DNA from: Amphiscolops sp. MND2022
Taxonomy: Eukaryota
NCBI GenBank assembly: GCA_964187785.1
Contig: OZ076409.1
Coordinates: 21,206,001-21,270,000 of the forward strand
DNA: 64,000 bases
Reading direction: 5' to 3'
This document shows positions 1 to 61,800 of the stretch, in pieces. A program made the position numbers and the translations under genes. Within the stretch, counting starts at the first letter, position 1, and each line of letters begins with the position of its first letter. The notes under the pieces were generated by a model, which worked only from the letters and a program-made list of their open reading frames with translations, made no database searches and was not told the DNA's origin.

Positions 1-445
1 TGATGTTTTGAATGAATTTAATTCTGAACTGAATTCATTTAAAATATGATCCAAAAGGTTGTTGTTTTTTTAAACGTGGTAGCTGAAAAAAATAAGCTGT
101 GTACTTGATGTTTGTTTGAAGATGTTTGTGTTATTGTGTTGCTTAGTTTGTTGATCTTTGTGTTGCTGTCATTGTTGATAACTAGTAGCAAAAACATTAG
201 AATTTGTTAATGTTATTTGTCATTTAATGCCAGTAGTAATAAATGGCAGTTTTAATTCAACGCCATTTTTTAATGAAACGCCAGTCGTAGTGGTAAGCCA
301 GTAGTAGTCTACTTCAGTAAAACGCCAGTAGTAGTCTACTTTAGTAAAACGCCATTCGTTTCTCGCCAGATATAATCAATCACCAACATTAGTAATGCGC
401 CAGTTGTAATAAAATGCCGTTTTTCTGCGAAACGCCATTGAGGAC

Positions 446-447
<2 letters not shown>

Positions 448-480
<33 letters not shown>
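448..480 (+). repeat. (TAG)n microsatellite, about 11 units
   Basis: Read directly from the sequence. Confidence 0.95.
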
Positions 481-954
481 TTATGGAGGACAATTTAAAG
501 TCCTTAGTAGTAGTTAATCTTGGGACAAGTTAAAGTGTTCAGGACTTTAAATTGGCATTTTAAATTGGAAGTGACAAAAAAACAACAGTGGAAGAACTTA
601 ATAGAACAAAAATAGGCTAAAACGTAAGAAAAGGTCCCAAAACGTAAAAAGAATGTATTTGGAGATTTTTTTCTTTCGTCAGAAAGTAAGTATTAAGAAA
701 AAATTTTCGAGGACAACTTAAACATAATTTGTAGCATGAGGACAATATAAAGACAACAAAATTTAAATTGGTATGTCGAACAATCGTGGTAGCAACAACT
801 GGGTGGGACAAAGAATCCCTAGCATTTAGTTCAAAAACACATTTTTCGTTAATTTTTGCACCAATGTTGGTAATAACGAAAATGTCGGGAACAAGTGGTT
901 GCTATGATACATTCACAACAAAATATCACTTTTCCCAGTATAATGTAATTTTAA

Positions 955-1032
955 AGAGGCTCTCAGTTAGGGGATCACATAGTGTCGCCCATAACAAGAC
1001 CCACGTCGAGAACGTGGCCTCTGGAGGGTCTC
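955..1032 (-). ncRNA. Candidate HDV/CPEB3-like self-cleaving ribozyme, copy 1
   Basis: Minus strand parses as P1 GAGACCC/GGGUCUU (first pair G.U), P2 AGAGGC/GCCUCU, P3 ACG/CGU, L3 UUCUCGA, P4 UUAUGGG..CCCCUAA, J4/2 CUGA. A homologous copy lies at 54921-55007. Confidence 0.6.
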
Positions 1033-1709
1033 ACTGAATCAAAGAAATTAGATGGTAATGAGATTTATGGGTAATCACTCCCTTTATAGTTTAGTTATGA
1101 GACGAATCTGCATCCTGCCTGTCAGTAATTATTTGATCGAGGATCAATTTTTAATTTCCCATACCACGAGGCCGCTTGGGATAAAATAGAGTTCATTGAA
1201 AAGTGCTTTGAAACATCGTTTATTTGAAAAATTCTTACCTGAGAGAATGGAGCGATTGGCGAATGCGGCAGCCAATCAAACTTGAGCATGAAAAAATTTC
1301 AAGCTTTTTTCATAAAAACATCAAAAAAGTCAATAAAACGAAATTCTTAGGTTAGGGGGTTCTACCTCCCAGGTACTGCGTTCAATGACAAATCGAATGG
1401 TACCTACCCCCCATCTGTATCTTTTCTGTGTGCGGATAAATTAAAAAGTAATTTAAAAAATATTCAAAAATTCAGAAAATCTCAATTATTTTTTTCAAAA
1501 AACAACAAAGTGGTTAAAATAAAATTCCCAGGTTGGAGGGTTCCATTTCCTAGGTACTGCATTCAATGACAAATCGAATGGTACCAACCCCCCATCTGTA
1601 TCTTTCCTGTGTGTAAAGAAATTAACAAAACAATTTTGAAAAAATATTCAGAAAAAATGGGTTCGCATAAGTTTGGCAGTTTCTAATTCTGAGAAATGTA
1701 GAACTCAGC

Positions 1710-1945
1710 AACTAATTTTAGACGTTTGTAATGCGGAAAAGAATTCAACTAATTTTAGACGTTTGTAATGCGAGAAAGAATTCAACTAATTTTAGACGTT
1801 TGTAAGGCGAAAAAGAATTCAACTAATTTTAGGCGTTTGTAATGCGAAAAAGAATTCAACTATTTTTAGACGTTTGTAATGCGACGCAGAGTTTAACTAA
1901 TTTTAGACGTTTGTAATGCGAAAAAGAATTCAACTAATTTTAGAC
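1710..1945 (+). repeat. 37-bp tandem repeat, about 6 copies
   Basis: Unit AACTAATTTTAGACGTTTGTAATGCGAAAAAGAATTC. Confidence 0.9.
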
Positions 1946-2870
1946 TGTTATCATGGGCAGTCACGTCATTTATAATTCAGTTACGAAACGATTTCATTCA
2001 AAAAAACGTGCATTGATATCTACATGAAAATCTGAGTGACCTATCAAAATGGGCATTGGCATTTTTGTGCAGGGTCGAATTATATGGAATCTAAAAGTTG
2101 TAAAAATTGGAGGGAAACTAACACAATCTTTTTTGTTTGGAAAGTTGCGGTTTGAATCAAAATCTAAGCGAGGTTATCCGTATTATTAAAAATCACGTAT
2201 TAAAAATTCGTATTTTTCGTGCAAAAACGATATCAGTAAGAGAATGTGTTCTTGAGTTGCGTACCTCATTTTGTTCCTCTGTACTTGTTATTGGTGCTTT
2301 CGATCAAATTTTTATTATCATTCTGTAGAAAATCTATTGCGAATTTCGCATCCCCCCCAAACACGAAAGCACATTTCGTTCTGGAACAAAGTGTCTTAAT
2401 TGAAATTATTGGGCCGTGTTGAATGCTTCGCATCTGATTGGCCAATGTTAAACCAATCGCAAGTTTTTGTGGCATTTAATTAGTTGCAATTATTTGGGCA
2501 CATTTAATCGATTTATATTTTCGACATGATATTGGAACTTGCTCTAATTTGTTTTTAGTTGTTTAAAAAAAATTCAAGTAAAAAAAATTAGTTTTCATTT
2601 TCTACAGGCTAAAATCGTAGGAAATTCTGTTCTTCCTTGGGCGTATTTCCCGGACACCAAAAAATTTCAATAATGAAAAGTCGATAAAAAAACAGGTATT
2701 TGTAACTAAAACTCCGGCAGTATAAATAAAACAAATTCCTTAAAAAAAAACAAAATTTAGTGTCTTTTCTCAGCTGGGAATTTCGTTTTAATGGTTTTTG
2801 TTTATATGAATTAGAAATAAGACGTCCCTGGATCCATGACTTCTAATAACGTTGATTGTTTCTAATAGTA

Positions 2871-2967
2871 AAAATAATTTGTAAAGAATTTTAAGGTATA
2901 GTATATCAGAAAATGTTATATTTTTTTCTGATCTACTATACCTTAGAATTCTTTACAAATTATTTTT
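2871..2967. repeat. Imperfect ~97-bp palindrome
   Basis: AAAATAATTTGTAAAGAATT...AATTCTTTACAAATTATTTT. Confidence 0.85.
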
Positions 2968-3579
2968 TAAATAAGATATAATATGATATTAGTATATTTT
3001 TTATATACTATAGTATATTTTTCTCTGGACCGTTTTTCTGTTTCACTTGGTATAAAATACCAAAATATTATATATATTGCTGTTTTAAACTGCTTCATTA
3101 TTGGTCGAGAGTACCAAAAATCTTACCTCATGAACGCCAATGCAACAGTTTACATAACACATTTGATTCTGAAAAAACATCAATAAAAGTTCTTAAAGTA
3201 AAATTCCCAGATTAAGGGTTTCTCTTTTCGAGATACTGCGTTCATCAATGACATATCGAATTGTACCAACCCCCCATCAGTATCTCCTGTGTGTAAACAA
3301 ATTGACAGAATAATTTTTTTTTGTTTTCTGAAAGATCATAAACAAGAGTTCGTAAAACAAACTTAATGGAAACACAAGGTTTTACCTACCTTCTTGTCGA
3401 CATAAATTGTACCTGGGTAGATAAAAAGACGTGGTCCATGATTTCTTAAAACAACTGGGAGAAAGTGTAATTTCATCTTCGTAAATTTGAATAAACGACA
3501 GGCATAATTGACAGGTATAATACTGGATAATTTAAATTGTATAAAACATTTAGGTAGAATGAAGATTATCACAAGAAAA

Positions 3580-3634
3580 GATTGACTGATTCCAGTTATA
3601 TCTTATATAAGATATAACTGGAATCAGTCAATCT
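3580..3634. repeat. Near-perfect ~55-bp palindrome
   Basis: GATTGACTGATTCCAGTTATATCTTATATAAGATATAACTGGAATCAGTCAATC. Confidence 0.9.
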
Positions 3635-4144
3635 TGGAATCAGTATATACCTGATAACGTATAAGAAGTTTACTTATATACCAGTATGACTTTGTGTGTC
3701 TAACACGTGTACAGTATAGCAGTCGATGCAGTGGTGAGATTAGAATCACACATTGCGAACAAGTTTGAATTATGACGCAATTACACATGTACATGTAATA
3801 CATGTACATGCCCTGCGCAAGTGTATTCACACTATATGTACACAGTGTCTTCTTTGTACATACAGTGTGATTTTATTTGCGCAGACAGTGCATGTATTAC
3901 GTCATACATGTACGTTTTGTACATGCGCTGGTCAAATTCAATTTACATTCAATTCTCTTATTAGTCGATGAACTCCAATCAAATAGGAAAAAGATTTTTT
4001 ATCTATATCTACGTAATTTTTACGAACAAGAATTTAGCTAACATATTTTGAAACTACCCTACATTATATACATGTATTATATATTTTGTATATTGTATCA
4101 TATGTATCAAATAGTTGTATTTTGTATTATATATATTTAAGCAC

Positions 4145-4920
4145 GGGAATATGATCTAATAATAGGGGACGGGAATAAGATCTAAAGAGAATCAGATCTA
4201 AAATATAGGGACAGGAATAAGATCTAAAAAGGGAATAAGATCTAAAAAAGGAATAAGATCTAAAAATAACTACAGGAATAAGATCTAAAAAGGGAATAAG
4301 ATCTAAAAAGGGAATAAGATTTAAAAAGGGAATAGGTTCTAAAAATAAGGACAGGAATAAGATCTAAAAAGGGAATGAGATATGAAAAGGGAATAAGATC
4401 TAAAAAGGGAATAAGATCTAAAAAAGGAATAAGATCTAAAAAAGGAATAAGTTCTAAAAATAACTACAGGAATAAGATCTACAAATTGAATAAGATCTAA
4501 AAAGGGAATACGATCTAAAAAGGGAATAAGTTCTAAAAATACGGACAGGAATAAGATCCAAAAAGGGAATGATATATGAAAAGGAAATAAGATCTAAAAA
4601 GGGAATAAGATCTAAAAAGGGAATGAGTTCTAAAAATTAGGACAGGAATAAGATCTAAAAAAAGAAAGAGATATGAAAAAGGAAAAAGATCTAAAAAGGG
4701 AATAAGATATAAAGGGGGAATAAGTTCTAAAACATAAGAACAGAAATAAGATCTACAAAGGGAATAAGATCTAAAAAGGGAATAAGATCTAAAAAGGGAA
4801 TAAGATCTAAAAAAGGAATAAGATCTAAAAAGGGATTAAGATCTGAAAAGGGAATAAGATCTAAAAGGGAATAAGTTCTAAAGTAAAAGGACAGGAATAA
4901 GATCTAAAAATTGGGGACGT
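4145..4920 (+). repeat. ~18-bp minisatellite (GGGAATAAGATCTAAAAA)n with variant units
   Basis: Read directly from the sequence. Confidence 0.92.
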
Positions 4921-5916
4921 GAAAAAGATTTTGGGGGGCCATACCTAAAACTTGAGAATGGTAAAAAGATTTGATAATTATTATAAAAAGAATTGAAAGT
5001 TGAATGCAGTACCCTGGAAATTCAACCCCCCAACCTGGGAATTTTGTTTTAATACATTTTTTTGAAGATTTTTTTCTAAAAATATTATGTAATTTTCCTA
5101 TTTCCTGAATAATTTTTGAAATTATTTTGTTAAATTCTCTACATATAAGAAAGATACAAATGGGGAGTAGGGACCATTCAATTCATCATTAAATGCTGGG
5201 AAGTAGAACCCCTAACTTGGGAATTTTGTATTGATAACTTTTTTAGATGTTCTTTAAAAAAACACGAAAATTTTCTGTTTTCTGGAATTTTTTGAAATTA
5301 TTTTGTTAAATTCACTTCATACAAGAAAGGTACCTATGGGGGGTTGGTATTATTCAATTCGTCATTGAATGCCGTACCTGGGAAGTGGAACCCCCCCCCT
5401 GAACCTGGAAATTTTGTTTTAACGTTTTTGGAAGTTCTTCCAAAAATAATATGAAAATTTTCTGTTTTCTGAAATGTTTTTGATTTTTTTTTGAAAATTC
5501 ATTCAGTTATTTCAAATATTAACTACTCGTGACTAGGAATCACGTGACTAACGTGTAAGAGAAGTATTCGCGTAATTAACGTCTTAAACATGAATTCACA
5601 GAACTAACGTCTAAAATAGGTATTCGCGAGACAACCGTCCAAAACATGGTTTCGCGTGACTTATGTCTAAAACAGGTTTTCCCGTGACTAACGTCCAAAG
5701 TAGGCAATCGCCTGATTAACGTTTTAAATAGGATATTTCTACTTTCCGCAAATTATTTTAAAATGGTACTTCGAATACTGACGGTAGTAAGCTAACAGAG
5801 GACAATTTAAAATTAATACTCAGTATTAGGCCATTTTAAATTGGCACTCCACGCAATGAGGACACTTTAAATTGGTATCATAATACCAAAATCCGCTTTA
5901 AATTGTCCCTCAGATC

Positions 5917-6074
<158 letters not shown>

Positions 6075-12088: not shown

Positions 12089-14850
12089 TCATGTGACTCC
12101 ATTTCTCACAAGGAACTCGGTGTTGAACATTTTGTGTTCCCAGTGTCTTCCTAAAATTTTAAAAGCGTTTACGTTGTCACAGCGCACAACTGTTTCTGGT
12201 AAGGAATTCCGAACCGCTACTGCAGCGACAGCAAAAAAATTCTTTCTAATTGCTAGTCTCGGTTTCTTTGTCTTCAGCTGGTAAGGGTTACCTCTGGTCT
12301 CTCTTTCGTTCAATTCGAATAACCATTTAGTCGCTTTCCTGTCGTAACATTCATTAAGTATTTTGTATACCTCAATCATTCTACCGCGATGTCTTCTGTA
12401 CTCGAGAGTTGGAATTTTCAATTCTTTTAACCTGTCTTCGTTGCTGAGATTACCGAAGCCGGGTACGAGTCTGATTGCTCGCCTCTGGGCACTTTCTAAC
12501 ATCAATATATGTTTCTGCAGAGACGGTTTCCAGGACTGGTTGGCGTACTCTAGATGAGGTCTAACGACAGTTTTGTACAGTGTTTTGAGGCTTTCTGCAT
12601 TAAAATTTAGGAAGCTTTTTTTAATGATCGCTAAAATGCCATTGGTTGTTTTTGTTTTCTTCGAAATGTGTTCGTGAAAGGAGAGTTTTGTATCGATTAT
12701 AATACCGAGGTCTTTCTCACTGTTAACCCTTGTCAAGGGTGTTGTACCATCCACGGAAGACGTTCTATTTGAGGATGTTGTTCTTAAACTCAAGGTAAGC
12801 TGGTGAAATTTTGTCAGATTGAACTCGAGATCACCACCATTTGAACACTTCTTCAACTTGTAAAGATCCTTTTGTAGTTCTTCCTGTTCTGCTAGGTTGG
12901 TGATTGCTCTGTAAATTTTCGCGTTATCAGCCAAGTAGAACATTTTGGATGTTACGCCATTTGACATGGAGTTGATGTAAAGAAGGAAAAGTATTGGTCC
13001 CAGGACTGACCATTGGGGTACTCACTTTGTCACTTCTGCCCACTGTGAGTGGTTCTCGTTTACTATGACTCGCTGTTTTCTTCCTGACAGAAAGGCAGTT
13101 ATCCAATCGAGAGTTTTCCTCGAATGCCATAAAACTCAATGATTCGCAGTAGGCGTTTGTGGGGGACGCTGTCAAAAGCCTTCTGGAAATCGATATAGAA
13201 TATATCGACTTCATTGCTGGAGTCCAATTCTGCGGTCCAATCTTCAAGTGCCCTGAGCAACTGTAAGGTTGTCGAGCGTCCGGGGACAAAGCCAAACTGC
13301 TGGTCAGATCTGATATGGTTCTGAACTAGGAAATTGATGATGTGCCTTTTGTTTTTCCTCTCCATAAATTTGCAGCAGATTGCTGTTAGACTGATGGGTC
13401 GGTAGTTGTTAGGATCGTTTTTCGAATCTGTCTTGTGAATGGCAGAAATATTGGCAAGTTTCCAGTCTCGGGGAAGTTCTCCAGACTGCCAAGGTTCCGT
13501 GAGAATTCTGTTCAATATGGGAGTTATCTGCTGGCGTGTCTCGTGTAATACTCGAGGATTCAGGTTGTCTGGCCATTGATTTGGTAGTGTTCAGTGACTC
13601 CAATTCTTTTAGAATTATCTCCTCAGTGATCACGAGATCATCTGAAATCTGAGTTGGTCGCCAATCAACTGGATTCCAGTCCCCAGGTGATTCTTTATTG
13701 AAGACGGAGCTGAAAAATCCCGAAAGAGCCTCTGCTTTATCAGTGTCTGTCATTGCACAAGTTTCGTCTTTAAGATTGAGGGTAGGTATTGTTTCAGTTA
13801 GTTTCAGTTTACTCTTTACATGGTTCCAGAAAACCTTCGGGTTAGATTTGACTTTGCTAGCGATTTCTTCTTCATGCTTCAAAGCATTGGTCCTTGTGAT
13901 CTTCCTGACTTTATACCTCATTTTACAGTAGTTTTCGTAGGCGTATTGTGTTCAATTTTTACAAAAGATTTTGTAGCGTTTCTCTTCCTCTAGGATTGTT
14001 TGGAAATATTCACCCAAAATTGGTGTTCGGTTGTGTCTGTTTTGTCGAATTTTCATTTTTGGTACATTGTCTCTGTGGCTTCATTCATCATATCCTTGAA
14101 ACAAATTCAGTTGTCTTCGAATGGTTAGGATTCGTCGTATTTAATATCTCGAACTGATTTGCACAATTCAGAATTGTTTCTTTTTTAACAGGTTGAGTCG
14201 AACTTTGGCTCGACGTTTGGACCAGACGTTGAATTTAACTTTGAGCAAGCTGTGATCTCCTTTGCCTAGAGTTGGCTTGTACTCGACGTTTGGTTCTAGG
14301 GATTTATCGATGAATAAAAGATCTAATTCTGATGGTTCGCGGTTTCCTCTTGCCCACGTTGGCCTGTCGATATGTTGTTCCAGGAATGAGTCCTTGATTG
14401 CCTCTAAGACCTGATGTTCTTTGCTGTTTTCATCATGATTCGTAGTGCAGTTGTCCCTGTCAATGTCACGCAAATTCGTGTCACCACAAGCAATGTGTTT
14501 CTTTCTGTTTCCGCCAATTGCTCTCAAAATTTTGTTTAGTTTGACGTTGTACTCATAGGGTGACGAAAGGATTCTGTATATGGATACAAAAGTAATGATA
14601 TCTTTCGGCAGGAAAAGCTCGTAGGCTTGGATTTCATCGAAACTGAATTCATGAGTCACTTCTTCGGTTTCAATGTCACCGCGTATGTATCGTAGCATTC
14701 ATCTTCCTTTATCTTCTTGGTCCATGTTTTTGTCTTTCAGCTTGTAGCAGTCAAGTTTAAACCAAGTCGGAGGCCATTTAAGAATTGTATTCTTGGGTTT
14801 GGCTCCAGCTATAGCTATAATGTGTGGTAAAGCGGAGGCTTGTTGTAGGA
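12089..14850 (-). pseudogene. LINE ORF2 (APE endonuclease plus reverse transcriptase), frameshifted
   Basis: Endonuclease motifs CGDTN, LDLLF, GKGDH (14168-14698). RT motifs NYRPISLT, QFGF, IDFQKAFDSVPH (13099-13515), YLADNAK, EKDLG, VRPHLEY (12089-12967). Confidence 0.9.
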
Positions 14851-14880
14851 GAGTTTTTGGTTCTAAAAATTTTTCAGTTG

Positions 14881-15890
14881 TCAGGACATCGACATTCCTG
14901 AACCAGACGTTGAATTGTTCACGTTCGTGTCCGTCAATACTTCTTGGGTTTTTAATCGTTTCTTTACCCCTAGAATTCGGTCTCCTCTCACTATGTGAAT
15001 GTAGTCTCCTGATTCCTCTGAGGTCAAGTTTTTTGCCCGTAGAACTAAGAAACGAACGTTTTTTCTTTCCTTCAGGCTCCAGTCTGGGGTGACTCTCAGC
15101 TGTCTAAAGTTTTCGTTAGCAAACTTCAGTTTCGTGAGGTTCTTCAACATCAGATCTGCATTATTTGTTGTGTCAAATGTAACCAATAAAGGTCGGGTCT
15201 GCTCTTCACTTTGGTCGTCTGGTTTTCTACCGAGTCTGGTACATTGCGTCACTGCCGTGCAATCAATATCGATGCTTCCACAAAGTTGGTTTACTATTTC
15301 CAGGTCTTGATCGTAGCGGTCTTTTGAATTTATGGCCTTACTCTCTGGGGCTTTGTAGATTACCACATTCTTTCTCCTTCTTAGGTCTTCAACTTGTACT
15401 TTTTTCTGTTCAGCACCTGCTTCTAGAATTATCACTTTGAGTGGTCTAGCAACGGTTGGCTGCGTTTTCCAGGTTCATGTTTCATTGTCCTTTGATTCAG
15501 GGGTTACTCCGCTCTTCACTTGTGTGCCATTTTTAAAGTAATAGAAGTCATCCATCAGAGTTTTACCCAAGTTCATGGTTGTATCGAGGTCGACCTTCAT
15601 TTTGGAGATTTCATCGGTGGTGCAAGTATTCACTGGTTTTTCATAAGTGCCTTTACTTCCCCAGTACACTTGTCGCAGCACCAAATGTCACTTGTGGTTG
15701 CCATGAACTCGTACACAGCTTCCAGGCTTGTTGATGCAATGCGCGCAGAAGTGTTTCGCACAGTTATCACACTCCATTACTTTATCCGAAGGATTGCTGA
15801 AATCCTTTTTGCAAACCTGACATGTCCATGCTTCGTCCGATGAGTCGGCTGTTGATTTTGATTTGGTTTTCTTGCTCGCGGGTGGCAGTC
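14881..15890 (-). pseudogene. LINE ORF1 with N-terminal PHD finger and RRM-like region
   Basis: CQVCKKDF...MECDNCAKHFCAHC at ~15730-15825. RRRKNVVIY, RLGRK and RPLLVTF in ORF 14881-15435. Confidence 0.75.
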
Positions 15891-18400: not shown

Positions 18401-20230
18401 AAAGAAAACTTGGATCTCGTTTGTGGAAAAGGTTTCAGGTATGTTGTTGGATCAGTCTATCTTAAACTTCACAACAAGGAAGCGGTTAATGAACTCATCA
18501 AAATTCAAGAATCAGCTAAGAAATAAGCTAGCCAAGTCAAAGCATAGGTAAAAATAGTATTTGGTGACTACAATGCTCGTAATCGTCTGTGAGGTAATCA
18601 GATTGACAACGAATACGGCGAGGAATTAACCGACAAACTGGATTCCCGAGAATACTCGAATATCAGCTCTGAGGACCCAACATTTCTATCCTCAATGGGA
18701 CTTGCAATATTGACTTTCTTATATGCTCTAACTTTACAGAAACAATGTTTAGTAACCTCTTGATTGATCCAGTTGTCGAACTGTTTTGCGGAGCTCCAAA
18801 CTGCGGACATGTACCAACAAGCACAACCATGAAGATAAACTGCCCCGGTACTCAAAACCCACCTCCCAAGTTGAGGATCGATCGTGACCGCATGGACTGG
18901 AAAGGGTGGTCTGAATTCATAGAATCATCTCTGGAAAAAGATTCAATCGACTTCTTCAATAGCTCAACACAGGACCAACGGAAAATCATTGACAGAACTA
19001 TCAATGAAGCCATACTGAAATTCTCAAAATGTAAAAAAATTCCAACCCATTACAAGCCATTCTGGATTGCGCAATTTACGCAGTTCTGGAGAGAGTTCAA
19101 TAGGTCCTTTGCAAGTAAATTGTATAACAAGGTTGATCCGCACCACTCTAATGATGATAACGTTCCAACAGATCGAAATAAAATGGAGGATATTCTGTTT
19201 AAAAGCTTTTTTGCTGGAAGGCGCCTCATAGAAAAACGCTCAGATTTTGATGATGTCTTTTATGATCACGTTAATAGAATTTGCAACGCGATCTTAGAAG
19301 CAGACGGGGAGCATGACAGAGGGCAGCAGCATTTATTGTATGAAGAAAGTAACAACAATTTGAGCTCTGAAATAACAACAGGAGAGATACTTTACTTCTT
19401 CAAAAAATATGAAACGTCAGACAAAAGGTATGATAATCATGGCTTCCACCCAATCATGCTGAGACACCTGAGAGTAAGAGCCGTAGATCTAATCAGGACT
19501 CTCTTTAGCTCATGCCTATCCGCAGGTAACTAGGTATGGGACACTGCCGATGTTAACTTCCTCAAAAAAGTCGGGAAACCAGACTACGCCACCAATCCAA
19601 GATCATATAGTGAACAAGACGTTTCGGCGACCATATGGCGGCGGACGTTTCGGCGACAAAGTGTCGGTGAAACATCTCTTAACAGGGTGGGAGGAGAACT
19701 GTCGCCGCAACGTCTTTCCATAGGATGGGCGGAGACATATATATGAACTGTACAACATAAATTGTCAAAAGACTTGGTTTTGTATACATCATACAGAAGA
19801 TATCATTCAAAAATATAAAACGTTCCTCGGATATGTCCCCATTTCCTCTAGTACCTCGCGGCCCCTTGGGGCCGCTTATTTTCCTTTTTTGCTGAGCGAG
19901 GTCGAGCAGGAGCAAAGACCTAGCGGGAATAGAGATCGCGATCGTAGTGGAGCTGGTCTTTGCGACGGTGAGCGCGAGCGTGCATACACAGCATATGCCC
20001 CACATTATATTTTTTTGCTTCCAGAACAAACGTTTTTAGCTTTTTAGAGGACGTTTCGGCGACAAAAACGTTTCGGCGACACTTTTGTTGCCGGAACGCC
20101 TGTCACCGAAACGTCAAGAATCCATCATATAGACCTATTTCATTAACCTCGAAGACAGGTAAAGTGTTCGAGAAAATTATCGCCTCAAGACCAGAGAATT
20201 TCTTGAAAACTACTGGAATCCACCAGTTTG
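18400..20230 (+). mobile_element. Decayed LINE ORF2 fragment (endonuclease end to RT start)
   Basis: GDYNAR..PTFLS at ~18560-18690, linker ORF 18745-19533, and a YRPISLTS motif split by a MITE. Confidence 0.75.
19611..20123. mobile_element. MITE with 9-bp TSD (Mutator-like); one per array unit
   Basis: ATCATATAG is duplicated at 19602-19610 and 20124-20132. GACGTTTCGG/CCGAAACGTC form inverted ends. Removing the insert restores the LINE peptide PRSYRPISLTS. Confidence 0.8.

Positions 20231-27705: not shown

Positions 27706-27709
<4 letters not shown>

Positions 27710-27761
<52 letters not shown>
27710..27761. repeat. (TA)n microsatellite, variable in length between array units
   Basis: Shorter versions at ~21298, ~24567 and ~30887. 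Confidence 0.9.
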
Positions 27762-27764
<3 letters not shown>

Positions 27765-44162: not shown

Positions 44163-47596
<3,434 letters not shown>

Positions 47597-50057: not shown

Positions 50058-52624
<2,567 letters not shown>

Positions 52625-52819
52625 ATTTCTAGAAATATCGAGTCCATTTTGCAGGAGGCCCGGAGGCCAATTTGCACAGCTGAGGCCATTTTGCACAAGT
52701 GGAGGCCAAATTGCACAGGATCTATTATTTTGTTGCGTTTTGGAGTCTTTGCCATAGAGAGAGCATCGAGAAACCGTTTTGCACATGCCACGAAAATGGA
52801 AATTGGTCTCTCTACAGAT

Positions 52820-53955
52820 AAGCCGTTTCACAGACTCGAGAATCCATTTTGCACTTCTTACGTGATCAGGCTAAGCCAAACTGCATTTCGTAGTTTTCAT
52901 TCGGGAGTCCAATTTGCACAATCATTTTCATTACTTCAACCCAACTAAACTCGAAAAGGGAAATGCAAATTGGCTTCCCTACAGATAATCCCGATGTGCT
53001 CTCTGGCTTCTCGACTCTATCCACAGGGGTGCAATTTGGATTCTCGCCGTTTCACACACTCGAGAATCCATAATGCACTTCTTACGCAATCATCGCGAAG
53101 CCAAATTGCATTTCGTAGTTTGCATTCGAAAGTCCATTTTGCACAATCATTTTCATTACTTCAACCCAACTAAACTCGAAAAGGGAAATGCAAATTGGCT
53201 TCCCTACAGATAATCTTGATGTGCTCCTTGGCTTCTCGACGCTACCCACCCTGGTGCAATTTGGATTCTCGCTGTTTCACACACTCGAGAATCCATTTTG
53301 CACTTCTTACGTAATCATGGCTAAGCCAAATTGCATTTCGTAGTTTGCATTCGGGAATCCAATCTGCACAATCATTTTCTTTACTTCAACCCAACTAAAC
53401 TCGAAAAGGGAAATGCAAATTGGCTTCCCTACAGATAATCTTGATGTGCTCCTTGGCTTCTCGACGCTATCCACCCTGGTGCAATTTGGATTCTCGCCGT
53501 TTCACACACTCGAGAATCCATTTTGCACTTCTTACGTAATCATGGCTAAGCCAAATTGCATTTCGTAGTTTGCATTCGCGAATCCAATCTGCACAATCAT
53601 TTCCTTTACTTCAACCCAACTAAACTCGAAAAGGCAAATGCAAATTGGCTTCCCTACAGATAATCTTGATGTGCTCCTTGGCTTCTCGACGCTATCCACC
53701 CTGGTGCAATTTGGATTCTCGCCGTTTCACACACTCGAGGATCCATTTTGCACTTCTTACGTAATCATGGCTAAGCCAAACTGCATTTCGTAGTTTTCAT
53801 TCGAGAAGCCAATCTGCACAATCATTTTCAATACTTCAATCCAACTAAGCTAAAAAAAAAGGGAAATGCAAATTGGCTTCCCTAAAGATAATCCCGATGT
53901 GCTCCTTGGCTTCTCAACTCTATCCACAGGGGTGCAATTTGGATTCTCGTCGTTT
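52820..53955 (+). repeat. 225-bp subterminal tandem repeat, about 5 copies
   Basis: ATGCAAATTGGCTTCCCT at 52963, 53188, 53413, 53638 and 53866. Confidence 0.93.
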
Positions 53956-53963
53956 CGCAAACT

Positions 53964-54530
53964 CGAAGTTCACGGTATCGCTTTTTCGAACTTAGTCACG
54001 GGATCGCTGTTTCGAACTTGGTCACGGTATCCCTTTTTCGAATTTATTCACGGGATCGCTTTTTCGAACTTAGTCACGGTATCCCGTTTTCAAAGTTATT
54101 CACGGTATCCCTTTTTCGAACTTAGTCACGGGATCGCTGTTTCGAACTTGTTCACGGTATCCCTTTTTCGAACTTAGTCACGGGATCGCTGCTTCGAACT
54201 TAGTCACGGTATCCCGTTTTCGAAGTTATTCACGGTATCCCTTTTTCGAACTTAGTCACGGGATCGCTGTTTCGAACTTGGTCACGGTATCCCTTTTTCG
54301 AATTTATTCACGGGATCGCTTTTTCGAACTTAGTCACGGTATTCCGCTTTCGAAGTTATTCACGGTATCCCTTTTTCGAACTTAGTCACGGGATCGCTGC
54401 TTCGAACTTAGTCACGGTATCCCGTTTTCGAACTTAGTCACGGGATCGCTGTTTCGAACTTGTTCACGGTATTGCTTTTTCGAACTTAGTCACGGTATCC
54501 CGTTTTCGAACTTAGTCACGGGATCACTGC
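53964..54530 (+). repeat. 26-bp minisatellite, about 21 copies, with two largely alternating variants
   Basis: CGAACTTAGTCACGGGATCGCTGTTT / CGAACTTGGTCACGGTATCCCTTTTT. Confidence 0.93.
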
Positions 54531-54920
54531 ATTCTATATCAAATTTAATTTATAGTGCAAGTACATGTATTACAGCAGTGAGTAGTTAGAACTGCCTCAA
54601 TGCTTAATTGCAATACTTATTTATGCAGCCGGCCTGGAAACAACGCAAATTTAGAATACAACGTGAAGCAAACATTACATGTAGTTCGAAACAGCAGAAT
54701 TCAATTTACTTTAACGATTAGAAGCGACTGGGAATTGATTTCTTTCAATTGAAATCAATTTCAAACGAAATTGAAAATTGTTGACAATTGAATTCGCCAC
54801 TTTAGAATACTCTCTACACACATTGATCTTCTTCACACATTGATCTCCACACATAGATAGTATTTTGTACATATAAAACTTTGTAAAATGTAGTTAGCAT
54901 ATTTTTGTAGTGTAATTTTT

Positions 54921-55007
54921 GAGACCCTTCAGAGGCCACGTTCTCGTCGTGGGTCTTGTTACGGGCGACACTATGTGATCCCCAAACAGACCAAACAGAG
55001 AGCCTCT
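54921..55007 (+). ncRNA. Candidate HDV/CPEB3-like self-cleaving ribozyme, copy 2
   Basis: GAGACCC UUC AGAGGCC ACG UUCUCGU CGU GGGUCUU GU ...P4... CAGA GAGCCUCU. A 9-nt duplication (CCAAACAGA) lies at the P4-J4/2 junction. Confidence 0.6.
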
Positions 55008-55622
55008 TTAAAACTACATCAGAATGGGCAAAAGTTTTTTTCGTTGAGATTTGTAATCTCAGCTAGAATTTATGCCCGACAAAAATTACTTGTTCAACTT
55101 ATAGTTACTCCAGTTATAGTTACTCCAGTTAAATGCAGATCACAGTGTGATTTCAATTTATAGTGCATGTACATGTACTCAATATACTCAATACTTAATT
55201 ATTCTGACGTCAGCGTATAGCTGATTTGAACAACAGATCATTTTCCTTCCAACTTTTATTCCTCCTCTCTAACTTTATTTTACCCTAACTCTAATGCTTA
55301 CCCACTTGATTTCATTTGATCCACGGAGATGTCAAAGGTAAGAACAGGTAAAAGATAGTAACACAAAAATTCAATTAGTGTGTAATAACACAAACTCTAA
55401 TTAGTTGAAGTTTAATGCTGATTGGTTTAAAATCGTTGACCTCTCTGACACCAAGGCTACCTCTGGCAATAAACAAAAATAGATCAATTAAATCTGCATC
55501 AATTAAATGAATAGAAAGAATGAAAACTAGAATGAAAATATTTCATGTAAATCAATCAACAAGTTTATTTAAATATTGAAAATGCCCAAAGAATCAGACT
55601 TTGCATGTTTTACAGCAGTACG

Positions 55623-56355
55623 TTACACAACAAATTTCGATGTTTTGTGTTGATAATATTCAAAAGTTAAGTATTGCTCACAGTTTTGTATTTTTTTATA
55701 GATTCTAGTGACGGCACAAGGGGCTAATTGTTTCCCATTAATTTGTAGAATTGTTTTTACGTTCTCAAGGGTCGGAGCTTTGACAACATTTTCGAAATAC
55801 TTTAGGCATCGTTTTTCTTCGTCACTCCAATTTTGCTCCTTTCTGAATAGATTTAAATGCTCAATGTAATTTTGGCGCATGCGATCCTCCTCGTCAAAAT
55901 CTTTGGGGTCAGGTCTCACTCCCGACCAGCGGCGACAATATATTTTACTCCTTTTCTCAGCACTTCCTGGCTGATAAGTGCTGTCACCTCCATCAGAATC
56001 AATGACATCCGATTGAGCTTTTCGTTTTATTGCACCACTCTTGATGGGTGATAATTTTGGTTCACGCACAGGTGTCTGAACTTCCTTCATTGTTGAGTTG
56101 AGGACCTGTGGAGATTCTCCTGAGTTCAGCGTCTCCTGCGCGTCTCCTGATTCATTTTCGGCAATGAGTGGCAAAGGCTGGCTTCGGAGCGGTTCCGATT
56201 CCGTTCTGAGGAAATGGAAGAGCTCGTCGCGTTGACGTTCTGAGGTCTTCGCCAGATAAACTCGCTTTTCCGTGCCATCTGTATGTCCAGTTTGAGCTAT
56301 GTGAGCCCGGGCGAGGGGCGTTTCCATGTTTGGATGCTTATGCCTGAAACAAAAA

Positions 56356-56399
<44 letters not shown>

Positions 56400-58530
56400 T
56401 ATTATTATTATTATTGCTGTTGTTTTAATTTTCATTAGTGAAATCAATACGTAACGATCAATCATTCTATTCCGCGTGACATTGTTGCATTTTAGTTTAC
56501 TAACGATTTTAAATTAGCAAGCCGAATTAGCGCAGTGGATTTAGCATTTGCGAACAACATATCTCGTGTAAATTCTATGTGGGTTCGATTCTCTGTATAA
56601 TTATACATATTTTTATATAAACATTATTTTTAAACTTAAAATAGAATTATAATAATTACTATACATTACTATAATAATAGACTTATACAAACATAATTAC
56701 TTATACATTACTTATATATAATTACTTATACATACTATATAATTACTATAATATATAATATATAAATTATACAAACATATAATTGTAAATATAATAATTA
56801 TAGTATACACACCTGTAGTGGAACGCCCAAAACTTCCGGATGGAATTCGAATTAAAGCGCAGACTTTCGGGGGATATTTTGTAACGGTTTTGTAATGTCT
56901 CTTTGACATCATTGGCCATCGACCTCTCTTCTTTATCACCAGGTGTTCCGAAAACATAAACGGGAGTGAAATTATATTTCGCCTGGAACCGTTTTTTCAG
57001 ATGATCAAAAAGATCATACAAGTCCTCGTGAACCCGAATGGACACCGCAGTCGTTTTTCCTGTCTTGTGTTTGTTGGTTCTGATTTCTTTTTGGTTATTA
57101 TTTTTGAGCGAATCATATTCCTGCCAAGTGAATCGATTCAGCGGTCCAGGGCGACAATTCATACGCACGCTTTGTATAAAATATACCAAAGCTTTTTCCT
57201 CTACAAACTTCAGAATGTCGTGTTGCAGATTCATCTGTAGGTCTTCTTTTATTTTGGCCATAGCGCTTTGGACGTCTATCTGTTCGGGCACCAGCTGCTG
57301 CAATCTTTCTTGTGTTTCTCTCTTCTCGTTGCAAGCTGGTTCCTCGAAGTCTTTATTAACGTTGCTGATAACGTAGTTCCACTTGGGTTGGTCGATTGCT
57401 TCGTCTTTGAACGTAGCGTACCAATTCAGAAATTTGGTGAAACTGTATAGATACTTTTGAGTGGTTTGAAACCCACACGATACTCTTTTTCTCCAATCGT
57501 CGATTACTTTCCCAAAAGCATGCAGTGTACTTTTATGGAATTTACGAGTCCCGTGGAACCACATTGCCATTGTTTTAGCCAAAGTGCTGTTTGGCAAACA
57601 TGTAAATTGTCTACGACCTCTTCGTTTCTCATCGGCGGTTGTTTTTTCGCACCATTCATTTATCAGCTCCATGTGGTCTTCTTCATAACCTCGTTTGTTT
57701 TTCAATAATTGCTTCACCCAGTCAGGAAACTCTTCCACTGCAGCGGGATTTTTGACTCTTTGGATATTCCGACATTCGCAATTTACGTTTTTGCCTCGTG
57801 ATCGCTGTGTTTGGATCGCTCTTTTGTGGGAAGGAATGCTTCCGAATCGTCTTTTGCAATCACTGCAATAATAAACGTTTTTACTTTTCAATGATTGGGC
57901 TCCTCTGAGTTTGTAGTAATTATTGAGAAACAATTTTAAATCTTCTGGTTTCTCGCAATGGACTTTGTTCAAATGTCTGTCAATTCTCGCGTGAATTACA
58001 GCATCGCAAATCAGACATTCATTTACATTCAGTTTTTTAATTCTCTTGTTTTGGCTCGCTTTGGTTTCATTGTCACCTGATTCGCCTTCTGTTTCGATGT
58101 CTGAATTGGGGCAAACCACATTTTGAACATTTTCAGTTGGAACTTCTTCAACAGAGTTGGATTCATCTTCACAGGGAGATTTATTGGGGACCAAATTTTC
58201 ATGAACGTTTTCTGTTGAAACTTCTTCAACAGAGTTGGATTCATCTTCACAGGGAGATTTGTTGGGGACCAAATTTTCATGAACGTTTTCTGTTGCACTT
58301 TTTTCAACAAAACTTGGTTCAACTTCCCTAGGAGATTTGTTGGGAACCAAATTTCCATGAACTTTCTCAGTTGCACATTCTTCAACTTCCATGGGAGATT
58401 TGGTGACAACCGTATTTTCATGAACGTTTTCGGTGTCAACCACGTTTTTGCGTTTTTGATTAAGAGCTGGCTTTTCTGATATATTTTTTTGTGCAGATCT
58501 CCTGGCTCGTCTCACGGATCGGGATTCCAT
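55623..58530 (-). CDS. Two-exon zinc-finger / tyrosine recombinase / Myb-like protein, 812 aa (exons 58530-56813 and 56343-55623)
   Basis: Donor AG|GTGTGT and acceptor TTTGTTTCAG|G are phase-matched (2439 nt in total). YR motifs in order: NCRPG (R), HKTG (K), SNSIRK (R), QTGHT (H), KRVY (Y). C2H2 finger CLIC..HLNKVH, N-terminal 26-aa repeats, C-terminal WSDEE helical domain. Confidence 0.85.
56521..56593 (+). other. Degenerate tRNA-like/SINE head inside the recombinase intron
   Basis: A-box-like TAGCGCAGTGG and B-box-like GGTTCGATTC. No intact cloverleaf. Confidence 0.45.
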
Positions 58531-58544
58531 TTTTGTGCTCACTA

Positions 58545-58940
58545 AACTACCGAATTCTATTCAATGAATGAATTACAGGTATTATTAGATTTACAAGAAT
58601 GCAGGTTTATTAAGTAACAGGTTTGATATTGAGGTTCCAAATTGAACGCCAATGAGGTGTGAACCTCATTGTTAACAGGTAGTTCGATTTTCCCTTCAAT
58701 TAACAGGTATATCTGTTGAACGCAGATCTGCAGGTGTGCAACCGATCGTTTGAAATCAACCTTCATTTATTCTTTAAGCTTCAATCATTTTTCAACATCG
58801 CACGCAATTCTGCAGGTGTGAAATCGATAGTTTGAAATCAACCTTCATTTATTCTTTAAGCTTCAATCATTTTTCAACTTTGTACGCAATTCTGCAGATG
58901 TGAAATTTTATTCAAAGATTTTATTCAAAGTTCACTTTCA
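58545..58940. promoter_or_regulatory. Putative bidirectional promoter
   Basis: 413 bp between divergent ATGs, with seven same-strand CAGGT motifs and an 82-bp direct repeat (58729 and 58811). Confidence 0.5.
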
Positions 58941-58943
58941 GAA

Positions 58944-59621
58944 ATGTATAACGTTACTAACGACACTGCTTCTCTTTATGACGAGTGTGACTACGAAGAG
59001 GAATGTACGTTGTCTGATGGCGAGAAGTTCAGACTTAACACGTCGTTAACGTCTTTCCGTTCGACTTTCTCACACGAAGAAAAAAATGCCCTTTTATTGT
59101 TTAGAAACATCGACAAAGTCCCTACCTTAAATTCCGTGGTTACCACGTTAAATAGAAATGATGTCTGTTTTAGTGACGATCGGATTTTCAAAATATATAA
59201 TAAAGTCAAGACTGCGTTCCATCAAATGAAGAAGACTAGCGCAGAAAGTACTTTCACACAACTTTCAACAACCAGAGGCAGTGAAGACATCCGCGCAACT
59301 TACAAAGCTTCCCTGTTGCGTTTCAGAGTAATCGAGTGGGATACTGAAACCAGGGAAGCCATTCAGTGTTTTGTTGGCGTCGATCTGAAAAAACCCTTGT
59401 CATTCAAAGAAGTGAATGTTGTATTGGAAATTAATGGTTTTGAGTTGCCACACAACACAATTTTGCGAATTTTCAGAAAAGTTAGAAGAGCTATGGTTGG
59501 TATTGGTTGCGTGTCGAGGGATGGTTGTATTACCAACCAGATTACTGAATCAATTTCTCCTGAGCAAGCTGCGATAAGGAGGAAAAAATTTAAAGCTTCA
59601 CTGTCTTCATTGGGACGTTAG
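58944..59621 (+). CDS. 225-aa protein with two Myb/SANT-like repeats paralogous to the recombinase C-terminus
   Basis: FSHEEKNALLLFRNIDKVPTLNSV..IFKIYNKVK and WDTETREAIQCF..VLEING..ILRIFRKVR align by eye with WSDEEKRCLKYFENVVKAPTLENVKTILQING..TRIYKKIQ. Confidence 0.75.
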   Translation: MYNVTNDTASLYDECDYEEECTLSDGEKFRLNTSLTSFRSTFSHEEKNALLLFRNIDKVPTLNSVVTTLNRNDVCFSDDRIFKIYNKVKTAFHQMKKTSAESTFTQLSTTRGSEDIRATYKASLLRFRVIEWDTETREAIQCFVGVDLKKPLSFKEVNVVLEINGFELPHNTILRIFRKVRRAMVGIGCVSRDGCITNQITESISPEQAAIRRKKFKASLSSLGR

Positions 59622-61219
59622 TCACGCACATTGGCCTGCTTCACGTGCGTGGCTTTATTTTATCGGACTGAATTCGAACTGAAATGAAAATTATCGAACT
59701 GAACTCTTTGACAAATTGAATAGCACCTACCCACAATAACGCATTTTCTGCTGCCTAACTTTTGAAAATCTGCCTTTAAAAATCTGAATTTCACTTTTGG
59801 TCTCACACAATTTTGGACAAAACTTTTATTATGCTTATTTCTAGTCAGCAACAAAGATATTCATTTTTCTAGAAACAACACAACATTATTGGAAATATGT
59901 CTTTTTTTCCTCCCGAAATACACCTTTTTTTGTATCATCTCAACCCCCCCCCCAATACGAAAGGTTTTCTGTCTTATAAACCTTATAAACCCAACTCTGT
60001 CTTATATTAATAACATAACCTTCTTACAGATGAAATTTGTAGATGAAATTTGACTGTCTATCAAGCTGAACTGAATTTAACTGGTGGAACTCTCGGCCAA
60101 TAAGAAAGCGCCATTGTGCAGGTTATCATAAAGGCATCGAATTATTTCTGCAATTTATAGAAGGTTAAGAAAAGTACAAGGTAATATAATTAATATTAAT
60201 TATTATTAATATTGTTCAATATTTATAGACAACATGAGCCGACTCCATTTTTAGTTACTATTTGATCCTCAAACTGAGAACCTCTCGAAAAATACATCAT
60301 ACTTGAATTATAAGTCGTTAATAAAAATATAAATTACTTTATTAAATTATTATAGGATTTGAATTTACAATTTACAAATTTACAATTTACAATATACAAT
60401 TCAAAAAATTTTTTGTGAGCTAATGAAACCAAATGTGCTTTCGTATTCACAACAAGGTGTACCTGGACGGGTATTTGGTTGGTTGAACACCCAAAATAAT
60501 GCAGCCCAACTGTTATTGTCAGTGAATTTGAGTCCTTTCTTCAGATCATCACTTCCGTGTGAGAGGTGTGAAATAATTGGCGAAAGCGGCAGGCAGCCAA
60601 TCAAATTTGAACTTGAAGGTTTTTATTAAGTACCTGCAATGGCAAAACTGTCAATTTATAAAATGGCAATAGAATTGCAAAAAATCATTTACATATTAAT
60701 ATATTAATAACATAATATAATTGTAATATAAAATAATATAATTGTATATTGATACAAATTTACAGTTCCAAATGATTATAGCAACAAACCCACCTCCCAA
60801 ATATATTGGATATAAAACTGAATTTCCATCTTTGAGCAACAATTTTACAACTTTCGAGAATACCACCAGGAAGTAAATATGAAATTAAAGCCAGCCAGTG
60901 TTTTCTTTCCTACAACTTCGGTAACAATAATTTGATGTGCAAACTGGCCTCTTTCTCAACTAGCCGGGATGGTGCAATTTGGCCTCGACGTTCTGAACTC
61001 GACGGCGAGTCGCTAAAGATGGGTTAAAAAAGTCGATTTTTTTTTCACGAATGGACGTTTTTTGGGCGTTTTGCATGTGTGGTAAAATATTTTTTTCCAA
61101 CTCTTTCGGGAAGATGCTTAAACCATGGATGCCAAATTGCACGGCCAATTTGCAGGGGGACTTTGTGCAAATCGGACTGTCGATTGAACTCAAGGGGTGC
61201 AATTTGGACTCTCGGAGTA

Positions 61220-61800
<581 letters not shown>

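What the first reader, a model, noticed from the sequence alone, without database searches (positions are those of the whole stretch)
955..1032. Second ribozyme copy in a different microsatellite-flanked element, same polarity relative to the repeat
It is the reverse complement of 54921-55007. P1, P2 and P3 are identical; differences fall in J1/2, L3 and the P4/J4/2 region, and similarity fades about 40 nt downstream. Both copies lie on the strand that reads (CTA)n in the flanking tracts, although I see no other extended similarity between the two host elements. This suggests a conserved functional module of a family of CTA/TAG-targeting elements.
Basis: partly seen in the sequence, partly recalled or inferred. 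Interest (0 to 1): 0.7.

Follow-up and report, generated by a model that had tools for sequence, protein, structure and literature searches.

The report
Ribozyme-hairpin RNA cassette in microsatellite transposons
Several unrelated DNA transposons that sit inside CTA repeats carry the same small cassette, a self-cutting RNA fold followed by a snoRNA-like hairpin, which probably releases a short stable RNA, a pairing of parts we found no description of.

Summary
955-1032 (-) is an HDV-type ribozyme fold, homologous to 54921-55007 (+), and both lie on the CTA-reading strand of different microsatellite-bounded elements; one host encodes a tyrosine recombinase (CryptonV-like). A fourth, 3'-half remnant lies at 60256-60303 (+). 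All three full copies continue with an A-rich hinge, a hairpin whose sequence has diverged (20/52) while its pairs are kept (5 of 12 pairs changed on both sides), and ACA 14-15 nt from the upper stem, an H/ACA-type 3' end. Best reading: a ~153-nt cassette whose 5' end is made by self-cleavage and whose 3' end is held by H/ACA proteins. No target-site duplication or tail was found, against a SINE head. Limits: three full copies, no covariation in the ribozyme itself, no genome, no RNA data, no cleavage assay; two H/ACA features fit poorly. No paper combining these parts was found in four searches.

The parts
955..1032 (-). HDV-type ribozyme fold, copy A; predicted cut 5' of G1032; P1 7 bp opening with G.U, P2 7 bp with a bulged A, P3 3 bp, 7-nt L3, one P1.1 C-G pair plus U.U, P4, J4/2 with putative catalytic C at 966
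   Evidence: role of each helix by analogy to HDV-like ribozymes (rest recalled)
938..954 (-). A-rich hinge with two ANANNA candidates for an H box (951-946 and 946-941)
   Evidence: 15/17 identical to L001, 13/17 to copy B
887..936 (-). 3' hairpin of copy A: lower stem, internal loop, 7-bp upper stem; pairing kept by compensatory changes
   Evidence: z -2.64, MFE = centroid; pair table
883..885 (-). ACA box candidate; end of the shared unit
54921..55007 (+). Copy B of the ribozyme, with a 9-nt tandem duplication (54982-54999) that lengthens P4-3'/J4/2
55008..55081 (+). Hinge, 3' hairpin (55026-55077) and ACA (55079-55081) of copy B
   Evidence: z -3.22
60256..60303 (+). Copy D: remnant holding only the 3' half of the ribozyme and the hinge; no P1/P2-5'/P3 found upstream
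   Evidence: E 4.8e-8 with a sequence model of A, B, C; alignment
481..5917 (-). Host element 1: bounded by CTA tracts, one subterminal motif at both ends, no ORF of 120 aa or more; probably non-autonomous
52606..61219 (+). Host element 2: bounded by CTA tracts, a different subterminal motif at both ends, tandem arrays at the left end, carries B and D
55623..58530 (-). Tyrosine recombinase gene of host 2, two exons (58530-56813, 56343-55623), antisense to B and D
   Evidence: family consensus with R, K, xxR, H, Y; fold closest to Cre; splice sites; second exon matches the family profile, E 1e-20
58860..59621 (+). Second ORF of host 2, two copies of the repeat found at the recombinase C-terminus
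   Evidence: E 1e-12 to the recombinase family profile; no Pfam or Atlas hit
447..480 (-). (CTA)11 tract, 474 nt downstream of ribozyme A
5918..6074 (-). (CTA)52 tract at the other end of host 1
52299..52605 (+). (CTA)102 tract, 2316 nt upstream of B
61220..61800 (+). (CTA)193 tract, 935 nt downstream of D

Best explanation
A ~153-nt self-processing RNA cassette carried by several families of CTA-inserting tyrosine-recombinase (CryptonV-like) DNA elements. A polymerase II transcript runs along the CTA strand (from inside the element or from the neighbour in the array; inferred). The HDV-type fold cuts 5' of G1, leaving a 5'-OH end (inferred from the fold). The hinge, hairpin and ACA then load the H/ACA proteins (dyskerin, Nop10, Nhp2), which stop 3' trimming a few bases after ACA (inferred). 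The product is a discrete, uncapped, nuclear RNP built like telomerase RNA or AluACA RNA, with an atypical 5' domain and no guide role, since the pocket sequences differ between copies. My best guess for its use: it serves the elements, by cutting CTA-strand read-through (B sits 542 nt beyond the recombinase stop, on the antisense strand) and by turning the cut product into a stable RNP shared by all families. Shown: the fold, the conserved hairpin and ACA, the boundaries, the polarity in 4 of 4 copies, the recombinase. Inferred: transcription, cleavage, protein binding, purpose.
For: All HDV-type helices form in 3 of 3 full copies; all 7 variable columns of 78 are unpaired, P 2.5e-4; descriptor found the 3 copies and 0 hits in 60 shuffles. 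Similarity starts at the cut site (upstream 12/40) and ends at ACA (downstream 5/20). Hairpin: z -2.6, -3.2, -2.7; same offsets in all three; of 12 pairs 6 invariant, 1 changed on one side, 5 on both sides, at 20/52 identity between A and C. A structure model built from A and B without the ribozyme ranks the L001 hairpin first among non-training hits (25.7 bits, E 0.011; next 15.1), the sequence-only model does not (5.7 bits, E 1.8). ACA 14-15 nt from the 7-bp upper stem; geometry met by 21 of 600 background ACA sites, 3 of 600 at similar energy. First H candidate is 27 nt from the P4 loop in A and C, inside the 24-28 nt range of PMC5207380. Outside copy 404 nt 5' of a CTA tract in the same polarity; 2-4% of strand positions of this window are so placed.
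Against: Only three full copies. The ribozyme shows no covariation: 0 of 26 pairs vary. Pseudoknot-free folding is not unusual for A on its own strand (z -0.96). Loop-to-ACA distances are 22, 24, 21 nt, so 1 of 3 falls in the human 24-28 range; no CAB box or full BIO motif in the loops. ANANNA is cheap in an A-rich hinge. The geometry filter was loosened after the real folds were seen, stems were chosen as fully paired windows, and the model matched the L001 lower stem and ACA but skipped its upper stem. D lacks the 5' half and its hairpin is weak (z -0.79, ACA not at the stem base). A donor-like site and CCAAT boxes lie upstream of A only, not of B or C. Position in the host varies (404, 474, 935 nt from the downstream tract; B over 6 kb). 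The purpose is a guess.
Confidence: 0.5

Rival explanations
1. An independent short retroelement: ribozyme head as in L1Tc/NARTc, RIME, SIDER or R2 SIDEs, with a 3' stem-loop read by a partner LINE, that landed in these elements.
For: The conserved head is 78 nt, the size of the Pr77 hallmark, with divergent sequence behind it; the 5' boundary is the cut site; position inside the hosts varies and host 2 has two copies. About 30% of the window lies in tract-bounded segments, so co-occurrence here is not rare.
Against: No TSD over 6 nt and none next to the ends, no poly(A) or repeat tail after ACA in 3 of 3. Divergence is uneven (74/78 head, 20/52 hairpin with pairing kept), which fits selection in place better than decay. 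4 of 4 copies are in tract-bounded elements in one polarity. The body between A and its tract holds host subterminal motifs, so A plus tract is not a tailed SINE.
Confidence: 0.2
2. A cis cutter only: the ribozyme stops read-through between elements in the array and antisense RNA over the recombinase; the hairpin is a stability or folding aid, not an H/ACA site.
For: Elements sit head to tail in CTA tracts; B lies 542 nt past the recombinase stop on the opposite strand and D 635 nt past the second ORF on its strand; H/ACA loop rules fit poorly.
Against: Does not explain the invariant ACA at fixed spacing or the conserved hinge; host 1 has no gene to shield; P4 is variable in R2 ribozymes but almost fixed here.
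Confidence: 0.18
3. An ordinary two-hairpin H/ACA RNA captured by the elements; the HDV-type pairing is incidental and it does not cleave.
For: The pseudoknot-free fold of A is hairpin-hinge-hairpin-tail; no covariation in P1; P2/P4/H spacing fits a 5' hairpin.
Against: An 11-nt 5' leader that forms all 7 pairs of P1 is conserved and starts exactly at G1; L3, P1.1 and J4/2 match the ribozyme pattern with change only at tolerant positions; no Rfam snoRNA family matches at the locus; 3' pockets differ between copies.
Confidence: 0.07
4. After the cut, the cassette acts as a protein-bound 5' cap on a longer RNA that runs through the element end into (CUA)n and helps find or open microsatellite targets.
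For: A, C and D lie 404-935 nt upstream of the tract on the CTA strand; fixed polarity.
Against: B is over 6 kb from its downstream tract; Cre-type recombinases need no RNA (recalled); no RNA data.
Confidence: 0.05

Closest known systems
HDV-like ribozymes (CPEB3 type; R2, L1Tc/ingi Pr77, RTE, Baggins)
   Same: Nested double pseudoknot with P1, P1.1, P2, P3, P4, G.U at the cut site, C and A in J4/2; 78 nt like Pr77. Single P1.1 pair with U.U as in CPEB3 (recalled).
   Different: Not at the head of a reverse-transcriptase element; no ORF, TSD or tail follows; P2 has a 3'-side bulge; P4 nearly invariant; followed by hinge-hairpin-ACA. No Rfam model matches.
Non-guide H/ACA RNAs: telomerase RNA 3' domain, AluACA RNAs
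   Same: Atypical 5' domain, hinge, 3' hairpin, ACA; pocket not conserved; H candidate 27 nt from the P4 loop (PMC5207380 passages).
   Different: 5' end would come from self-cleavage, not from a cap or intron trimming; no CAB box, no full BIO motif; 3' hairpin 2-3 nt short in 2 of 3 copies; carried by DNA elements.
CryptonV DNA transposons
   Same: Tyrosine recombinase, insertion in microsatellites (PMC8869645 passage); short direct repeats and circular intermediate proposed for Cryptons (PMC3212892 passages).
   Different: No ribozyme or small RNA found reported. Hosts here carry subterminal motif clusters at both ends; relation to Repbase CryptonV sequences untested.
Short non-autonomous ribozyme retroelements (NARTc, RIME, SIDER, R2 SIDE); platypus snoRTE (recalled)
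   Same: Conserved ribozyme head with divergent body; snoRTE joins an H/ACA RNA to a mobile element.
   Different: No TSD or tail; order here is ribozyme then H/ACA hairpin, with no LINE-like 3' end seen.

Membership tests
HDV-like ribozyme | P1, P2, P3, P1.1 and P4 in nested double-pseudoknot order | tested here: met
   26 of 26 pairs form in 3 of 3 copies; helices listed
HDV-like ribozyme | G.U or G-C first pair; catalytic C and conserved A in J4/2; conserved G in L3 | tested here: met
   features from PMC3774820 passages and recall
HDV-like ribozyme | Covariation in the helices | tested here: inconclusive
   0 of 26 pairs vary; all 7 variable columns unpaired, P 2.5e-4
HDV-like ribozyme | Match to a curated Rfam model | tested here: not met
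   no match at the locus at E up to 1 (whole window) or 10 (900-1100, L001); Rfam models leave out pseudoknot pairs (recalled)
HDV-like ribozyme | Self-cleavage 5' of G1, lost on C-to-U change | not testable with these tools
   needs an in vitro assay
Box H/ACA RNA | 3' hairpin with internal loop directly before ACA, 14-15 nt from the upper stem (rule recalled) | tested here: met
   15, 15, 14 nt; compensatory changes in 5 of 12 pairs
Box H/ACA RNA | H box (ANANNA, recalled) in a single-stranded hinge | tested here: inconclusive
   two candidates in 3 of 3 copies, but the hinge is A-rich
Box H/ACA RNA | 24-28 nt from terminal loop to H or ACA (human set, PMC5207380) | tested here: inconclusive
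   5' side 27, 27 (36 in B with its duplication); 3' side 22, 24, 21
Telomerase/AluACA-type H/ACA RNA | BIO motif or CAB box in the 3' terminal loop | tested here: not met
   loops listed are closed by A-U pairs and hold no ugAG; definition
Box H/ACA RNA | Dyskerin/Nop10/Nhp2 binding; 3' end three bases after ACA | not testable with these tools
   no RNA run listed
Pseudouridylation guide snoRNA | Conserved pocket complementary to a target | tested here: not met
   3' pocket sequences differ in all three copies and are mostly closed in A and B; no target search was run
SINE/LINE 5' end (NARTc, SIDER, SIDE, RTE) | Target-site duplication and poly(A) or repeat tail | tested here: not met
   no match over 6 nt within 700 nt, none adjacent; no tail after ACA
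CryptonV (host) | Tyrosine recombinase with catalytic residues | tested here: met
   host 2 only: consensus, Cre-like fold, probability 1.00 but E 9e-3; 2 of 25 homologues scanned hit Phage_integrase below cut-off
CryptonV (host) | Both ends inside a microsatellite | tested here: met
   hosts 1 and 2; one end seen in L001
CryptonV (host) | Recombinase groups with Repbase CryptonV sequences | not testable with these tools
   no Repbase; homologues carry no informative names

The most novel reading that the evidence does not exclude
A new class of RNA: a ribozyme-released H/ACA RNP that microsatellite-targeting tyrosine-recombinase transposons make as a working part, either a trans-acting scaffold shared between element families or a protein-bound cap on a (CUA)n-ended transcript that helps pick the target. 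It would give a eukaryotic DNA transposon an RNA component and add a third route of H/ACA RNA biogenesis.
Probability: 0.13. Interest if true: 0.92.

Novelty: new variant of a known kind. Interest (0 to 1): 0.72.

Why it matters
In eukaryotes HDV-like ribozymes are known mainly as heads of retrotransposons and in a few introns (PMC6765202 passages); a DNA transposon that moves by a tyrosine recombinase has no evident need for one. H/ACA RNAs are known to get their 5' end from a cap or from intron trimming. A natural fusion of the two would show a new way to make a stable uncapped nuclear RNA, would give an RNA handle on how poorly described CryptonV-like elements work, and is a compact design of practical use for expressing defined small RNAs. 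It is cheap to test: one cleavage assay, one northern blot, one pull-down.

Tried and rejected
No whole genome is held, so enrichment and strand bias could not be measured genome-wide. No sequencing run was listed for 481-4100: no RNA holder listed, which is no evidence either way. Rfam: nothing at the locus. Viral contigs: 0 matches to three ribozyme patterns; 11 stretches matched recombinase peptides, 0 confirmed. Prokaryote genomes: 2 matches to a looser 25-nt pattern (L002, L003), rejected as chance since the match is confined to about 30 nt, without P1-5' or P4. 80 of at least 120 viral loci with a CTA tract: 0 hold the ribozyme. Phage records: no match. The MAFFT/RNAalifold consensus gave only 3 of 12 pairs with double changes and 9 of 12 with one broken cell, because L001 is one column out of register; the anchored count replaces it, and both are reported. 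PDB by sequence: 0 hits; Foldseek: none at E 0.001 or better. The SET gene at 44055-46403 looked like a recombinase fusion by eye but did not match the family profile. An intronic setting is suggested for A only. B and D as long terminal repeats of a nested unit: rejected, they share only about 48 nt. Telomerase CR4/5 identity: considered from memory, helix order differs, not pursued. Earlier findings of the scan: nothing returned in 6 look-ups.

Full report
Setting. The window is AT-rich eukaryotic repeat DNA with decayed LINE-like ORFs, an assembly gap and five pure CTA tracts. No genome was held and no sequencing run was listed, so the evidence is the window plus collection scans.

Observation. 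Copy A (955-1032, -) and copy B (54921-55007, +) align at E 6e-33; their 25-nt core occurs twice in the window and never in 100 shuffles. Written out, both give P1 (7 bp, first pair G.U), J1/2 (3 nt), P2 (7 bp, one bulged A on the 3' strand), P3 (3 bp), a 7-nt L3, one P1.1 C-G pair beside U.U, P4, and a C-N-G-A J4/2 with the putative catalytic C at 966. A descriptor for this fold found A, B and later C, and 0 hits in 60 block-wise dinucleotide shuffles; I wrote it after seeing the sequence, including the bulge option. Rfam has no match at the locus. B carries a 9-nt tandem duplication in P4-3'/J4/2, so A is the cleaner copy.

More copies. One exact-pattern scan of the metagenome collection gave 1 locus, L001. 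Its copy C is 74/78 identical to A, lies on the CTA-reading strand and ends 404 nt before a 9-unit tract; A ends 474 nt before its tract. Beyond the L001 tract begins another element whose end is 72% like the far end of host 1, so both genomes have arrays of elements joined in CTA tracts. In this window 2% and 4% of strand positions lie within 500 and 1000 nt upstream of a tract; the background in the L001 genome is unknown and it may be a close relative. A sequence model of A, B, C found a fourth, partial copy D at 60256-60303 (+), E 4.8e-8, again on the CTA strand. Viral, phage and prokaryote collections gave no true copy. Across A, B, C, 26 of 26 pairs are invariant, so there is no covariation, but all 7 variable columns of 78 are unpaired (P 2.5e-4).

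Hosts. Host 1 (481-5917), host 2 (52606-61219) and the L001 host each have their own subterminal motif, found at both ends in hosts 1 and 2, and share only the cassette and, for hosts 1 and 2, a 40-nt CCAAT motif. Host 1 has no ORF of 120 aa. Host 2 encodes a two-exon protein on the minus strand with 59 relatives at E up to 0.001; 25 aligned sequences give a consensus with R, K, xxR, H and Y in tyrosine-recombinase order; the model (pLDDT 92.8) is closest to Cre, probability 1.00 though E only 9e-3; 2 of 25 relatives scanned hit Phage_integrase below its cut-off. A recombinase element inserted in microsatellites is what a passage of PMC8869645 calls CryptonV; I did not see the Repbase report it cites, so the label is a resemblance.

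After P2, A, B and C keep a 17-nt A-rich hinge, then a hairpin, then ACA 69-71 nt from the ribozyme. Each hairpin folds on its own (z -2.64, -3.22, -2.70; MFE equals centroid). Anchored on ACA, the lower stem starts at offset 17-18 and the upper at offset 35 in all three; of 12 pairs, 6 are invariant, 1 changes on one side and 5 on both, while A and C are 20/52 identical there. Stems were picked as fully paired windows, so zero broken pairs is partly by construction; the automatic alignment, one column out of register for C, gave 3 of 12. As a separate test, a structure model from A and B without the ribozyme ranked the C segment first among non-training hits (25.7 bits, E 0.011, rough; next 15.1), matching hinge, lower stem and ACA but not the upper stem, whereas a sequence-only model gave 5.7 bits, E 1.8. 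Similarity drops to background before G1 (12/40) and after ACA (5/20). ACA lies 15, 15 and 14 nt from the base of the 7-bp upper stem, the H/ACA spacing (rule recalled). A loosened geometry filter passed 21 of 600 background ACA sites (of 2286), 3 at similar energy, and 9, 12, 6 of 300 shuffles. The first ANANNA lies 27 nt from the P4 loop in A and C, inside the 24-28 nt range reported for human H/ACA RNAs (PMC5207380 passages). Against: the 3' loop-to-ACA distances are 22, 24, 21 nt, no CAB or full BIO motif is present, and the hairpin after D is weak (z -0.79).

How it most likely works. A CTA-strand transcript is cut at G1; H/ACA proteins bind hinge, hairpin and ACA and stop 3' trimming; a ~153-nt (164 in B) uncapped RNA results. 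It is unlikely to guide pseudouridylation, as the pockets differ. A cassette that fixes both ends makes most sense as a way to produce a discrete RNA; cutting read-through in the arrays, and antisense RNA near the recombinase (B is 542 nt past its stop), may be a second use. Every step after the sequence is inferred. The main rival is an independent short retroelement like NARTc or SIDER (PMC4035085 passages); no TSD or tail was found in 3 of 3, but only a genome scan can settle it. My odds: real self-cleaving fold about 0.85; conserved 3' hairpin about 0.9, H/ACA in function about 0.65; module of the elements about 0.7; all together about 0.5.

Literature. Four searches looked for the combination: HDV-like + ribozyme + Crypton, 0 papers; HDV-like/H ACA/ribozyme/ACA box, 0, though the slash in H/ACA may defeat that term; ACA/HDV/ribozyme/dyskerin/transposon, 12 papers, by title and abstract start telomerase studies, reviews or unrelated work; self-cleaving ribozyme/snoRNA/HDV-like/DNA transposons/microsatellite since 2018, 3 papers on retrotransposons. 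CryptonV itself appears in 3 papers. I read keyword passages only, of PMC8869645, PMC5753468, PMC6765202, PMC10871703, PMC3212892, PMC5207380, PMC3774820 and PMC4035085; all other papers were seen as listings; no supplements were opened. Subscription journals and Repbase are not covered, so a prior description there is possible. CPEB3 details, the ANANNA and 14-15 nt rules and snoRTE are recalled.

Verdict. Real, conserved under selection, and larger than reported. The parts are known classes; their fusion and their presence in recombinase DNA elements appear undescribed. New variant of a known kind, interest 0.72.

Noticed in passing
window 41720-53509: A 5.9-kb tandem duplication at 99.8% identity (41720-46710 = 47615-52605, continuing into the left end of host 2); the first copy of host 2 breaks off near 47600, before the ribozyme. 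Could be real or an assembly artefact.
   Followed up: no
window 44055-46403 (+), repeated at 49950-52298: SET-domain gene (Pfam E 2.6e-6) split by a ~170-nt double-hairpin insert at 45199-45367 and running into the CTA tract; a 796-aa unsplit relative exists. It did not match the recombinase profile, but one recombinase relative, P0022, carries an N-terminal SET domain.
   Followed up: partly
window 1292-1655 and 5000-5505: Inverted arms of ~185-nt repeats inside host 1, enclosing 37-bp and 18-bp arrays; may be a nested foldback-type element.
   Followed up: no
window 1238-1277 (-): Splice-donor-like site 207 nt upstream of copy A, behind two CCAAT boxes; the same 40-nt motif recurs at 60576-60617 in the opposite relation to the cassette.
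   Followed up: partly
window 1-446, 6075 onward, 61801 onward; L001 1-824: Further element ends abut the tracts; 220-446 has its own repeated short motif, so the window holds more CTA-joined units than the two studied.
   Followed up: partly
window 54912-54920 and 55080-55088: Copy B is flanked by a 9-nt inverted repeat that would pair the two ends of the cassette; not seen in A or C, probably chance (read).
   Followed up: no
window 18715-31514: About four tandem copies of a 3.2-kb unit (89-92% identical) with decayed LINE-like coding remnants.
   Followed up: no
window 12089-15474 (-): Decayed non-LTR retrotransposon with reverse transcriptase remnants (weak RVT_1); no ribozyme match near its 5' end.
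   Followed up: partly
window 58860-59621 (+): ORF divergent from the recombinase, made of two copies of the recombinase's C-terminal repeat; possibly a DNA-binding accessory protein.
   Followed up: partly
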